A stretch of DNA of 64,000 nt from Amoebidium appalachense (taxonomy: Eukaryota; Protista; Ichthyosporea): contig CAVNZM010000008.1 in the NCBI GenBank assembly GCA_963693365.1, forward strand, positions 8,126,818 to 8,190,817, written 5' to 3'. Made by a program: the position numbers and the translations under genes. The notes beneath the pieces were generated by a model. It worked only from the letters and a program-made list of their open reading frames with translations, did not search any database and was not told where the DNA came from. Positions 41,111-60,800 of the stretch are shown here, piece after piece; within the stretch, counting starts at the first letter, position 1; the number at the start of each line of letters is the position of its first letter.

Positions 41111-44100
41111 CTACTCTACAAGCCTAGTATACCTCGTGCTAATCACATAAGCCTTTCTCGGCCCCTTCACATCCCACTTCGACGTAAATACGGAATCGCT
41201 CACCAGCTCAAACGTCCCCCTATAGTCATCGGGGTCACACCAATGCGACGTACAAACTACTTGCGGTTCAACTTTCCGTGTTTCTGACATAATTCCGGTA
41301 TTTGTAACCGCCTCCCGCGCGTTTGATATTGCTGTTTCAGAGTCGGGCGGGGTTGAAAATGATAACGGAAGATCGAAAGTTAACGGGTGGAAGGGTCGTT
41401 CGATTTCATATCCGTCGATTTCCTGAATGGGAGAACCAATGTTGGTTTAGATAATCATACATTACACACACTATTACAGAGCCCCCCCCCCCCCCCCCCC
41501 CCCCCCCCCCCCCCCCCCCCCCCCCCACACCACCACCACCACACACACACACACCCACCCACCCACCCACCCACCCACACAAAACAAAACAAAACAAAAC
41601 AACAACAAAAAAAAAACAAAACAGGGGGTAACGGGCGGGACAAACACCAATGCATACCTTATCCCGCTCAACGTTCCTCATCCAAAGGCAAAAAGTACAA
41701 CAACAATCAAAAAAGCAAACAAGCAAAAAGATCAATCACACACACACACACACACACACACACACACACACACACACGCACGCACGCACGCACGCACGCA
41801 CGCACGCACGCACGCACACACACTGTAACAGGTACATGGACGGGAACACGGACACGTGCATATAAGTGTAAAAAAATGTAGGCAGAATACAGGTAAACAG
41901 AGCCCATTGTAAGTGAATCTCATACCTCTCCACAAACCAACCGGTTCAACTCTTCTACATTTCACACATCATTTTATTTCCAGCCCGTCTTGGCCGATAT
42001 TCTAGGAGCAGCAATTCATTTTAACATACCCTAAACATATATACACTTGCAAACACAAAAGGAAGGAGGAGAGAGATTTTAGAAGAGAGACGGAAACGGG
42101 GAGGAAAAAATGGGGAGAGGAAGAGGGGCAGCGAGAGCAAGAACTGACCGGGGTGGGTGGGTGGGTGGGTTTGGGGAGGGGGGGAAGGAGTCTGGGGGAA
42201 GGGGAAGGGGAAGGGGAAGGGGGGGGGGGGGGTTTGAATGCGTCATAAAGTAAAGTGCACAAGAACAACGGATAACACGATGCAGAATGCAAACCATACA
42301 TAAAGAGTATGCATAATAAGCAGAGCCCATCCTCAGGGGGGGGCCACGTCATCCACAGTACCCGAGTTTCGACCTATTCACCTCGTTAACGAAACCCAAC
42401 TCAGATACTGTTTCATTTGAACATGGGTAGGTCACCCGTCTTGATCAGAGACGAGCAGGGTTACTTATGCAGGCAAGGGCAGTAGGAAAGGCCGGGGGTT
42501 AAAGTTGCAGCAGTAAGCAGAAGCAAGAAAAATGGGGGGGGGGGGGGGGGGGGGGGGGGGGGAAGGAGACAATACCGGAGAATCAGGATCAACACTAGCT
42601 CCCTTCAAGGGTGGGAGGGTGAAATATACGGAAATATCATCCACACAATTCTCCTGCCGGCCAGAATGAAACTCCCACATCTGCTGCTTGGTGGCGTCTA
42701 TAGGCCCCGTGGCCCCCGGCATCATGAACGGGCCCCTCTCGCGGTACAGAAGATACTCTGAGCCCTGTTTGGAACTTTGTTTTAGTTTTTTATAGTCTTA
42801 ATTTTAGTTTTAATAAAGTTTTTAGGGTTTAATGAAGATGGTATGTCATAGATTATTCTCAGGTTCATGGACCGGATTCAACCGAATGACATTTGATTGA
42901 AAGAGGTATTGCATACAGGAACGAGAAAACCGAGGCAAGGGAGTAAAAAATGCCCCCCCCCCCCCCCCCCCCCCCGCGCAAAAAAAGGCCAAAGGGGTTC
43001 TAAATAACAAAGAGAAACGAAAGATGCCCCAGAATCCCCAGAGTCCGCCCCCCCCCCCCCCCCTCCCCCCCCCCCCCCCCCCCCCCCCCCCCCAGAAAAA
43101 AAGAAGTGGTGGTGGTTGCGTAGTGGCGGTGGTTGTAGCTGTGGTGTGTGTGTGCGTGCGTGTGTTACCCCGGGGGGGGGGGGGGGGGGGGGGGGGGGGG
43201 GGGCTAACAAAACAGGGAGCGATATGTAACCATAAACAGAAAGGAGTGCCTCATATCAACCCACACCGTGACACACACACACACACACACACACACACAC
43301 ACACACACACACACACACGAACACGCACACACCCTGACACACACACACCCACACCCACACCCACACACACGTGCAATGTGCCTAGTGACAAAAACCCGGA
43401 CGTCACGGCAGGCCCTTGGGGCCGGCTGGGCCGGGGGGTAAGGCACAGGCCAATGCTCTGCTCCCGCACAATCCCACCGCAGACGGGGGGTTCATTCCGC
43501 AGTGGATCAGAAAGGGAGGGGGTACCAACACAAATACGCTGAGAACACGCTCAATCTAATATAAGTGCAATCAGAACAACAACCTGACACAGACACAAAA
43601 TGAGCATACACCGACCCAGATGAGTGCACACGACTGTGCACACAAAAACTATGTAAATATGCACCAAAGTGCATACATACCTTTGAAAGGGGGGGAGGGA
43701 GGTACGAAGGGTGTGAGAGGGAGGGAGGAAGGGGGGGAGGGGGAGGAGGGGGAGTGGGGGGGGGAGAGAGAGGGAGAGAGAGAGGGGGGAGGAGGGGAGA
43801 GAGAGAGAGAGAGAGAGAGAGAGAGAGAGAGAGAGAGAGAGAGAGAGAGAGAGAGAGAGAGAGAGAGAGAGAGAGAGAGAGAGAGAGAGAGAGAGAGAGA
43901 GAGAGAGAGAGAGAGAGAGAGAGAGAGAGAGAGAGAGAGAGAGAGAGAGAGAGAGAGAGAGAGAGAGAGAGAGAGAGAGAGAGAGAGAGAGAGAATTGTC
44001 AAGCGAGAGAGCAGGAAGAAAGACACCGTGCACACATGATCAACACACGTCAGACACACACATGCACAAACACACACACACACACACAAACAATCCCCCA

Positions 44101-57800: not shown

Positions 57801-60800
57801 ACACACACACCCACCCAACCACCCACACACCCACCCACCGGGTTCTCTCTCCCTCTCTTCTTTCCACCCATCGCCCCCCATCACTCACCCATATACATGG
57901 CAATAGTCTACAGAGCCTACCCTCTGTGGACGTGCTTGAAGAGAGGGAGGGGCTGCGCATCAGGGGGGACTACGGGGCATGGGCCCAGGAGAGGATGAAG
58001 GAGTGGGTGGCTGCACTGCTGAGAAAGGCCCTCACTGATAGGGTAGGTTTAAAGTTATAACTGTTTTAAATTTTATTGAAATTTATAATTTTATAGTTAT
58101 ATTCTTTTGTGCTGATAGTGTCCTTAGGGTATATAGTTTTATTATATCATAATCATAGAGTAGGGTACTGATCGTTTTTTATAGTTTCATGGTGCTTATT
58201 TATATGTTTTTTATTGTGTGTTGGTACCCCCCTCCCTTCTGATCCGCTGCGGAATGATTCCTCCGTCTGCAGTGGAATTGTGCGGGAGCAGAGTATTGGC
58301 CTGTGCCTTACCCCCCGGCCCAGCCGGCCCTAAGGGCCTGCCGTGACGTCCGGGTTTTTGTCACTAGGCACATTGCACGTGTGTGTGTGTGTGTGTGTGT
58401 GTGTGTGTGTGCGCGCGCGCGCGCGTGCGTGCGTGTGTGTGTGTGTGTGTGTGTGTGTGTGTGTGTGTGTGTGCGCGCGCGCGCGCGCGTGCGTGCGTGC
58501 GTGTGTGTGTGTGGGGGGGGGGGGGGGGGGGGGGGGGGTATGTCACTCTCTCCCGGTGTGTGATGTGTACGAGTTTGATTGCATATGCTCTGTTGCGTTT
58601 AGTACTTTCTTGCACACACTGAGTTTTAGATTGTGCGTGCCCTGTGCATACTTGTGTTTGCACCCCCCTCCCTCCTGATCCACTGCGGAATGAACCCCCC
58701 GTCTGTGGTAGAATTGTGTGGAAGCAGAGCATTGGCCTGTGCCTTACCCCCCTGCCCAGCCGGCTCCAAGGCCCTGCCGTGACGTCCTGGTTTTTGTCAC
58801 TAGGCACATTTCTTATATCCTTCAACTCCCCCCCCCCCCCCCCCCCCCCCCCGCCCCCTGGGCCCCGCCTCTCTTCCCCCTCTACCGCCCCTTTGGGGCT
58901 GCTGCTTGGCGTTTCTTGTACATGTGCTTCGCTCTTTGAAGCGAACAGATGAGCGGGTCGATGTATGTGCGATGCTGTAGTTGTGTACGGATTTTTTCGG
59001 TCTTTCCACTCCTTTTGTTTCTTCCTCTATTTGTCCAATGTGTTTACCAGTCTTCCTGCATTCGAACCGCTTTCCTATCCAATCCATCCGATTCAATCCA
59101 ATCTAATCTTCGATCTGATCTACGCTAATCTAATCTATCATGGCAGGTAAAACTTTTATGTGTCCGCCAGCATCCGTACACTCAGGAGTGGTCAGTCAAC
59201 GAGGTGGGATCCCCCCCGTCCCCTCCCCCCCCCCCCCCTTCTTTTTTCGGCCTTTATTTGTATTTTGCTTCCGTGTTTCCCACTTTCTAACACACACAAA
59301 CCTCCAACAACCCCTTCCCCCCCCCCACACACACACACTGACCCACTCACCCACCCATCTCCACCCATCCCCTTTCCTCTCCCATGGACACACCAACCCG
59401 CCGCCACCTGCACGATTCTTGTCTCCACTCCTTCAAATACTCACACGTGCAAACACACACACACACACAATGCTTTCGTGACAATGCTGTTGTGGTAGGA
59501 TGAAATGATCTTGGGTAGGTTGGTGGGAGGAAGAGGGAGAGGCGAGGGAGGGAAATAGAGCATGATCATTATTAGGTCCATCAGTCCTGCATGATTTCTG
59601 ACCAATCATGTGTTGCAGGAGCCACCAGTGGTACAGCCCAAGAGCCTGAGCATTGGTCTGATAGTTGATGCCGGCCAATGGAATCGCATCGTTGACAAGG
59701 GCCCATTGCCGACAGACAAGGAGGCTGGTACGTGCACTGTGACCCATGGCATGTACATGTGCACACATGCGAGCACGCAAACGCACGCATACACACGCCG
59801 ATGCGCGTACACACACACACACACACACACACACACACACACACACACACACACACACACACCGCTCTCTCTCTCTCTCTCTCACCATCGGCTCCCCCTC
59901 CACCCACCATAAGAAAGTGCACACAAGACATTCCCAGGCAACACAAAAACACTCCCCCCCCCCCCCCCCCCCCCCCCCTCCCCCTTCTTGTTTGCCTTTG
60001 CATGTGTCCTGCACCATGCTTCTCATCGTGTATGCGTACTTCGTAGCGTGTTCCGCATTCAAACCCTCCCCCCCCTTCACCTCCCCTCTCTCCCACCCTC
60101 CCAAGGCTCTGTTGTTTTTTGATTTTTCTGTTGTTTTTGGTGGTTTTGTTGTTTGCTATTGTTACTGGTGATTGTATGGTGGCGGTGTTCTTCTTACGAG
60201 GAGGAAAAGAGTTATCGCTTGCATGCATGTGATTAAACCGTTTTTTATAGAAAACTACAGGTCGGCAATTTAATGCCCGTTTCTCTCTGTGCAAGGCAAA
60301 CCGGGCAAAACGGTAAATGTTGAATCGGTTTTCCTGAACACTGACTCTTTTCACTTTTACAGCCGCTGAATTCCGGGAGTTTTGGGGTGAAAAATCGGAA
60401 CTGCGACAGTTCAAGGACGGCAGCATCCAGGAGGCTGTGTTGTGGGACAGACCCAAGACTGAAAGGCACCTCGTGATGAGGGATATGGTGTGCCACGTGC
60501 TGGCAAGGTGGGTGGAGTGTGCGTGTGTGTGCGTGTGTGTGTGTGTGTGTGTGTGTGTGTGTGTGTGTGTGTGTGTGTGTGTGTGTGTGTGTGCTTGCAT
60601 GCATACATACACGTGCACATGTGTGGATGCAGGCTCACGGACATGTGCGTGTGCAAGCACACACGGACACACACACACATACACAACATACACACAGGCA
60701 CACACAAACACACACTTGAGCACATAAACACACAAACACTTGGGGGCACATAAGCACGTAACCCCCACGGAAGGGTAAGCTCACAACGACTCCAAACACA

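What the first reader, a model, noticed from the sequence alone, without database searches (positions are those of the whole stretch)
43374..58811. Six-copy intronic H/ACA-like RNA family spread through NOL6 and into the neighbouring gene
Seen: a ~150 nt element with hairpin 1 (CTCCC..TCCACTGCGGA/TCTGCGGTGGA..GGGAG), a hinge, hairpin 2 (GCCT..CCGG/CCGG..AGGC) and ACA near the end of shared homology. Hinge variants AGAGCA, AAAGCA and AGAGTA all fit ANANNA. The upper stems end 13-15 nt before the H and ACA boxes. Copy 5 changes A-U to G-U and U-G to U-A. Five copies lie in NOL6 introns on +, and the only - copy lies in an intron of the - strand DUF6314 gene, so all are sense to the host. Established: this is box H/ACA architecture, and ribosome-biogenesis genes commonly host snoRNAs. 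Inference: a recently amplifying snoRNA or snoRNA-derived mobile element. Two shared 3' flank types (GCACGTGTG vs TCTTATATCCTTCA) suggest DNA-level copying. I could not assign a confident rRNA target.
Basis: partly seen in the sequence, partly recalled or inferred. Interest (0 to 1): 0.75.

Follow-up and report, generated by a model that had tools for sequence, protein, structure and literature searches.

The report
Locally duplicated intronic H/ACA snoRNA family
Six near-identical copies of a predicted small guide RNA (box H/ACA snoRNA) sit in introns of a ribosome-assembly gene and its neighbour, likely copied locally as DNA and likely guiding a chemical change in ribosomal RNA, which makes this a new example of a well-known kind of gene.

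Summary
The six copies are real. Five of six fold as a box H/ACA RNA with correctly spaced pockets; 0 of 1000 shuffles and no other site among 5218 H/ACA box pairs in the window do as well. Copy 6 has decayed. Changes in copies 1-5 avoid stems and boxes (1 of 18 breaks, 4.5 expected, P about 0.02 with copy 6 set aside afterwards). The family looks local, not a genome-wide mobile element: 11 of 11 element-side loose ends in public contigs are this window's own flanks, with no A-tail or target-site duplication. Sense orientation is weak evidence, because an unrelated intronic repeat is also sense in 11 of 11 cases. A discrete RNA is not shown. No target is proven. Best canonical candidate: hairpin 2 on a large-subunit uridine that, by recalled numbering, is vertebrate 28S pseudouridine 2826. 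A rival snR30-like, upside-down pairing with 18S near yeast position 466 depends on the organism's own 18S, which I could not read. Verdict: new member of a known kind (snoRNA cis-duplication).

The parts
43374..43518 (-). Copy 1, predicted H/ACA RNA (5' stem to ACA+3) in intron 1 of the DUF6314 gene
   Evidence: passes fold test 0.28; one change, pair kept
52345..52490 (+). Copy 2, NOL6 intron 51956-54063
   Evidence: fold test 0.56; 6 changes, none breaks a stem or box; low-depth RNA contig with its flanks in X11
53271..53415 (+). Copy 3, same intron as copy 2
   Evidence: fold test 0.69; 3 changes, one breaks the hairpin-1 lower stem
54595..54740 (+). Copy 4, alone in NOL6 intron 54202-54987; equals the majority sequence, likely closest to the parent
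   Evidence: 0 changes from majority; fold test 0.52; RNA contigs with its 5' flank in X10 and X9
58232..58375 (+). Copy 5, NOL6 intron 58043-59146
   Evidence: 8 changes, none breaks a stem or box; fold test 0.30
58668..58811 (+). Copy 6, same intron as copy 5; decayed, likely pseudogene
   Evidence: 5 of 10 changes break pairs; fold test 0
54655..54660 (+). H box of copy 4 (ANANNA)
   Evidence: the 2 changes among copies fall on N positions
54735..54737 (+). ACA box of copy 4; predicted 3' end 54740
   Evidence: invariant among copies
54671..54678 (+). Hairpin-2 pocket, 5' strand: 7 Watson-Crick pairs with the large-subunit candidate; its 3' half gives 4 pairs with the 18S candidate
54720..54731 (+). 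Hairpin-2 pocket, 3' strand: 5-6 pairs with the large-subunit candidate; 12-nt exact complement to one 18S variant
45846..63472 (+). NOL6/Nrap (Utp22) host gene, exons seen in the window; continues past 64000
   Evidence: exon 57907-58045 joined to its neighbours in three RNA sets
41111..44451 (-). DUF6314 gene, host of copy 1 (exon layout inferred)

Best explanation
Six near-identical copies of a predicted box H/ACA snoRNA gene lie in introns of NOL6 and a neighbouring gene, likely spread by local DNA-level duplication and likely acting as a pseudouridylation guide for rRNA. Shown: six copies, intron positions, H/ACA fold in five, decay of copy 6, absence of retroposition marks. Inferred: release from the spliced intron by trimming to ACA+3 and binding of dyskerin/Cbf5, Nop10, Nhp2 and Gar1 (established for the class); copying by recombination or template switching among intronic C-runs and (TG)n tracts, giving mosaic flanks (copy 6 shares its 5' flank with copy 1 and its 3' flank with copy 4). 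Most likely target (about 0.35-0.4): hairpin 2 positions the large-subunit uridine at Rfam LSU model position 1901, 14 nt from ACA; hairpin 1's best candidate (a large-subunit U-run, L013 7587) is weak. With two copies in one intron, only one would mature unless an endonuclease cuts between them.
For: Fold test 5 of 6 copies, 0 of 1000 shuffles, 0 of 6 reverse strands; window scan of 5218 box pairs gives only these five at 0.4 or more, one other site at 0.2. Copies 1-5: 1 of 18 substitutions breaks a pair or box, 4.5 expected, P=0.023. 11 of 11 element-side loose ends match the window's own flanks (7 in DNA sets X1, X2; 4 in RNA sets). No tail or flanking direct repeat at the boundaries. Host is a ribosome-biogenesis gene. 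LSU candidate: 7 Watson-Crick pairs plus 6 of 6 (two G-U) in L013, in the top six in 7 of 10 long rDNA loci; it lies 2 nt after the position matching yeast Um1888, and SNORA49 is listed as guiding 28S-2826 and 2830 in vertebrates (PMC6984369 table passage); equating that site with human 2826 rests on my recalled numbering. Cis-duplication is the usual route to snoRNA paralogues (PMC2653536, PMC6984369 passages).
Against: No Rfam family matches the element. No relative in metagenome or viral contigs, so no outside conservation. No covariation. Over all six copies the constraint test is not significant (6 of 28 breaks, 7.7 expected, P=0.27); copy 6 was set aside after seeing it fail. Whole-RNA folding z-scores are modest (-2.1 to +0.4, where copy 1's input lacked its 3' end). 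RNA contigs over the element are low-depth and carry 9-148 nt of intron flank; 1 of 4 ends at ACA+2, 2 run past, 1 stops short. The LSU candidate is borderline even in its best variant (22 of 400 shuffles with G-U; it is not the top hit with Watson-Crick pairs only) and has a U-U mismatch in the commoner variant; yeast lists no pseudouridine there. Hairpin 1 candidate: 108 of 500 shuffles.
Confidence: 0.7

Rival explanations
1. A functional H/ACA RNA whose hairpin 2 works like snR30/U17: the lower part of the pocket grips pre-18S rRNA (around yeast positions 461-474) upside-down and acts as a folding chaperone, not as a modification guide.
For: Top hit in 10 of 10 long rDNA loci in the inverted geometry (tied in one). 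With strictly unpaired pocket strands, 0 of 400 shuffles (Watson-Crick) and 3 of 400 (with G-U) reach it for the six-A 18S variant. The site spans the uridine matching yeast pseudouridine 466 (offset fits 5 of 5 listed positions). The paired stretch can end 7 nt before ACA, the snR30 spacing (PMC2664660 passages).
Against: The rDNA loci were fetched with a pattern built to hold this variant; it was 0 of 47 in an unselected but contamination-biased sample. For the common variants 17 of 400 (Watson-Crick) and 14-139 of 400 (with G-U) shuffles do as well; in the alternative fold it is not significant (196 of 400). Several geometries, folds and scorings were tried. The earlier score of 40 borrowed three upper-stem bases. 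The element also has a 13-nt SENSE match to LSU rRNA, so such words arise by chance. The LSU guide model already explains most of these letters.
Confidence: 0.1
2. All six copies are dead or neutral intronic passengers: a snoRNA-derived cassette carried between introns by the same local copying that spreads the other repeat families, with no stable RNA made.
For: Other modules are copied among the same introns in the same orientation; copies are young; no discrete RNA or proven target; all-six constraint test not significant.
Against: Copies 2 and 5 carry 14 changes, none breaking a stem or box; no more distant parent turned up among the contigs laid at 80% likeness.
Confidence: 0.15
3. A snoRNA-derived retroposon (snoRT or SINE) active across the genome.
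For: Recent multiplication and a jump to a second gene; snoRNA retroposons are often sense in introns (PMC1687206 passages).
Against: No A-rich tail or target-site duplication, the defining marks in PMC1687206; copies carry upstream intron flank; no foreign flank among 11 loose ends.
Confidence: 0.05

Closest known systems
Intron-encoded box H/ACA snoRNAs with cis-duplicated paralogues (chicken, PMC2653536; Xenopus, PMC6984369)
   Same: Hairpin-hinge-hairpin-tail fold, sense position in introns of a ribosome-biogenesis gene, near-identical paralogues in several introns plus one in another gene, one decaying copy
   Different: No match to any Rfam family; two introns hold two copies each; single-celled-eukaryote-type intron-rich genome (lineage not established here)
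Drosophila intronic H/ACA clusters (mentioned in PMC3089462 passages)
   Same: More than one H/ACA gene in one intron
   Different: Here the pairs are 0.3-0.8 kb apart and one partner is decayed
SNORA49 (guide for 28S-2826/2830; PMC6984369)
   Same: Possibly the same target uridine for hairpin 2 (numbering link recalled)
   Different: No Rfam similarity at E up to 10; hairpin 1 gave no hit at the second site
snR30/U17 (PMC2664660)
   Same: Possible pairing from the lower part of the 3' hairpin loop, 5' strand with the 5' rRNA segment, near 7 nt from ACA
   Different: Different 18S region, contiguous target, no Rfam match; statistical support is conditional
Mammalian snoRNA retroposons (PMC1687206)
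   Same: Sense intronic copies in a new host
   Different: No tail, no target-site duplication, local only

Membership tests
box H/ACA snoRNA | Two hairpins separated by a single-stranded hinge with ANANNA | tested here: met
   5 of 6 copies
box H/ACA snoRNA | ACA directly after hairpin 2 | tested here: met
   6 of 6 copies
box H/ACA snoRNA | Internal loop with its top about 14 nt from each box | tested here: met
   13 and 15 nt; part of the fold test
box H/ACA snoRNA | Bipartite complement to an rRNA or snRNA uridine | tested here: inconclusive
   Only other eukaryotes' rRNA could be scanned; best 22 of 400 shuffles; snRNAs not scanned
box H/ACA snoRNA | Stable RNA ending 3 nt after ACA | tested here: inconclusive
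   1 of 4 RNA contigs ends at ACA+2; contigs cannot show ends
box H/ACA snoRNA | Binds dyskerin/Cbf5, Nop10, Nhp2, Gar1 | not testable with these tools
   needs an experiment
any curated Rfam family (incl. SNORA49, snR189, snR30/U17) | Covariance-model match | tested here: not met
   0 at gathering in the window; 0 of 25 weak hits fall on an element core
snoRNA retroposon | A-rich tail and 7-19 bp target-site duplication | tested here: not met
   (one 8-nt shared word near copy 1 lies far from the boundaries)
snoRNA retroposon | Dispersed copies at unrelated loci | tested here: inconclusive
   No foreign flank in 11 of 11 loose ends, but no whole genome is held and contigs are filtered
snR30/U17-type processing RNA | Proximal-loop pairing with 18S, about 7 nt from ACA | tested here: inconclusive
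   depends on the organism's own 18S

The most novel reading that the evidence does not exclude
This is a second kind of snR30-like H/ACA RNA: hairpin 2 holds the 5' domain of pre-18S rRNA upside-down across the uridine that yeast modifies at 466, acting as a chaperone co-expressed from its host NOL6 (itself an early pre-ribosome factor), possibly while the same loop also guides a large-subunit pseudouridine from its top.
Probability: 0.1. Interest if true: 0.7.

Novelty: new member of a known kind. Interest (0 to 1): 0.3.

Why it matters
It is an unannotated snoRNA family caught during local amplification, with intact, drifting and decayed copies side by side, and it shows that a general intron-to-intron copying process in this genome can move a snoRNA into an unrelated gene without retroposition. 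That is useful for snoRNA evolution but fits known patterns. If the inverted 18S pairing were real, it would be only the second example of that binding mode among the papers I found and would suggest re-scanning orphan H/ACA RNAs upside-down.

Tried and rejected
No whole genome is held, so copy number rests on contigs. DNA contig depths (28-39 on copy-specific pieces, 86 and 114 on shared pieces in X1) fit six or fewer copies, but the tool warns that depth is no copy number; 7 records were not shown. The repeat finder was swamped by simple repeats. Rfam: nothing. Element pattern: 0 in metagenome contigs, 0 in viral contigs; an 18S motif: 0 in viral contigs. Target scans without significance: hairpin 1 canonical 108 of 500, hairpin 1 inverted 25 of 500 (G-U) and 313 of 500 (Watson-Crick), hairpin 2 canonical in fold A 346 of 400. 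One search used a mis-registered structure and is discarded; one search replaces it. The organism's own rRNA and all snRNAs were not available, so they were not scanned. The search for a paper linking yeast Um1888 to human 2824 returned 4 unrelated papers. Earlier-finding look-ups by place and by sequence returned nothing.
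Full report
Observation. A BLAST of copy 4 against the window returns six copies, 92-97% identical to it, and nothing else above 14 nt; the alignment confirms the hinge variants, the invariant ACA and the two 3' flank types. The protein P0001 from a public transcript-derived set is identical to the window's exons and carries six Nrap domains, which fixes the introns: copies 2 and 3 share 51956-54063, copy 4 is alone in 54202-54987, copies 5 and 6 share 58043-59146. 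Three RNA sets join exon 57907-58045 to its neighbours. Copy 1 is sense in the inferred first intron of the minus-strand DUF6314 gene.

Is the fold more than chance? I wrote a test from the general H/ACA rules (each hairpin closes within 3 nt of its box, has a lower stem, a two-sided internal loop and an upper stem starting 13-16 nt from the box) and scored the share of sampled structures that pass. Copies 1-5 score 0.28-0.69, copy 6 scores 0, 0 of 6 reverse strands pass, and 0 of 1000 dinucleotide shuffles reach 0.1. Over the whole window, 1797 H-like boxes and 5218 box pairs were tried; the five copies are the only sites at 0.4 or more, one other site reached 0.2. The test was written after seeing the element. 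Plain folding z-scores are modest. Rfam has no match.

Selection. In copies 1-5, 1 of 18 substitutions breaks a pair or box against 4.5 expected (P=0.023); in copy 6, 5 of 10 do; over all six the test is not significant (P=0.27) (two columns of a C-run register shift were left out). There is no covariation. Reading: several copies are still under constraint and copy 6 is a pseudogene; the evidence is modest.

Spread. No genome is held. Laying contigs of two DNA sets on copy 4 at 80% likeness gave 7 loose ends, all flanks of the window's copies; four more in RNA sets are too. There is no A-rich tail or boundary direct repeat, and flanks are mosaic. By PMC1687206 (abstract and passages seen) retroposed snoRNAs have both marks; by PMC2653536 and PMC6984369 (passages) intragenic duplication and moves between genes are ordinary. 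Two other repeat families occupy the same introns and their shared motif is sense in 11 of 11 hits, so orientation here reflects how this genome copies intron pieces and does not by itself show function.

Expression. Four low-depth RNA contigs (2.2-4.5, against 22-126 on the exon) lie on the element in three RNA sets from two studies, of copy-2, copy-4 (two) and copy-6 type. One spans 54572-54739 and stops at ACA+2 without a loose end; two run 27-32 nt past the laid end, one stops short; they carry 9-148 nt of their own upstream intron. They fit intron or precursor reads and do not show a mature RNA.

Target. The organism's rRNA was not available, so I scanned rDNA of other eukaryotes (86 loci, chosen by an 18S motif; 10 long ones used; null models on L013 only). 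Hairpin 1: best canonical site is a large-subunit U-run (7+6 pairs in L013), reached by 108 of 500 shuffles. Hairpin 2 has two folds. With the longer lower stem, the best canonical site in L013 is the uridine at LSU model position 1901 (7 Watson-Crick pairs plus 6), 14 nt from ACA, reached by 22 of 400 shuffles and in the top six in 7 of 10 loci. It lies 2 nt after the position matching yeast Um1888 (table in PMC5699541; offset about 10-11); by my recalled numbering this is vertebrate pseudouridine 2826, assigned to SNORA49 in PMC6984369 (table passage). With the shorter lower stem, the loop is complementary to 18S around yeast 461-474 in the inverted order described for snR30 (PMC2664660, abstract, passages and section 6): 0 of 400 shuffles for the six-A variant, 17 of 400 for common variants with Watson-Crick scoring, 14-139 of 400 with G-U; that variant was 0 of 47 in an unselected sample. 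I rank the canonical LSU site first because it is the ordinary mechanism, falls on a site modified elsewhere and accounts for most of the same letters; neither is proven.

Comparison and novelty. Multi-copy intronic snoRNAs, several H/ACA genes in one intron (PMC3089462, passages) and paralogues in fungi (PMC5824354, passages) are known; PMC8763049 (passages) added nothing on inverted pairing. A search for proximal-loop pairing listed 4 papers, of which only the snR30 paper describes it in what I read. Searches for snoRNA with a guessed genus and class listed 2 and 4 papers, none on this topic by title or abstract start; the lineage guess is unverified. Earlier AI notes of this scan report similar families in other genomes (not checked). 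Verdict: a real, unannotated, locally amplified H/ACA snoRNA family; new member of a known kind; interest 0.3, with a 10% chance of a more unusual snR30-like role.

Noticed in passing
window 54683-54684: Both copy-4-type RNA contigs (X10 and X9, two studies) read AA where the window has GC, in the hairpin-2 upper stem; not seen in the DNA contigs listed. Allele, strain difference or collapsed assembly is more likely than editing.
   Followed up: partly
window 51340-51646, 57002-57308, 42233-42533(-), 32775-32987, 22793-22947, 22968-23125: Second intronic repeat family (up to 307 nt, 95-100% alike) in four genes, all sense, bounded by C-runs, with a common 3' end and 5'-truncated copies. It holds three 12-16 nt words antisense to conserved rRNA but fails the H/ACA scan; possible SINE-like element or C/D-like RNA.
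   Followed up: partly
window 35589-35731, 55074-55214, 57468-57610, 59989-60063: Third intronic repeat family sharing both end motifs with the second; more diverged relatives near 46106, 57344 and 63179.
   Followed up: no
window 36888-37460: Cluster of about ten short direct and inverted copies of a ~25-45 nt unit in AT-rich sequence inside an intron, unlike its surroundings.
   Followed up: no
window 57-1818 and 10905-12682: Near-identical (98%) duplication of about 1.7 kb, 10.8 kb apart; recent segmental duplication or assembly artefact.
   Followed up: no
window 47641-47651: An 11-nt word identical to the hairpin-2 3' strand occurs in an unrelated NOL6 intron, showing that this word is not rare here.
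   Followed up: no
L087-L133: 47 prokaryote genome records carry eukaryotic 18S fragments, mostly on short contigs: contamination.
   Followed up: no
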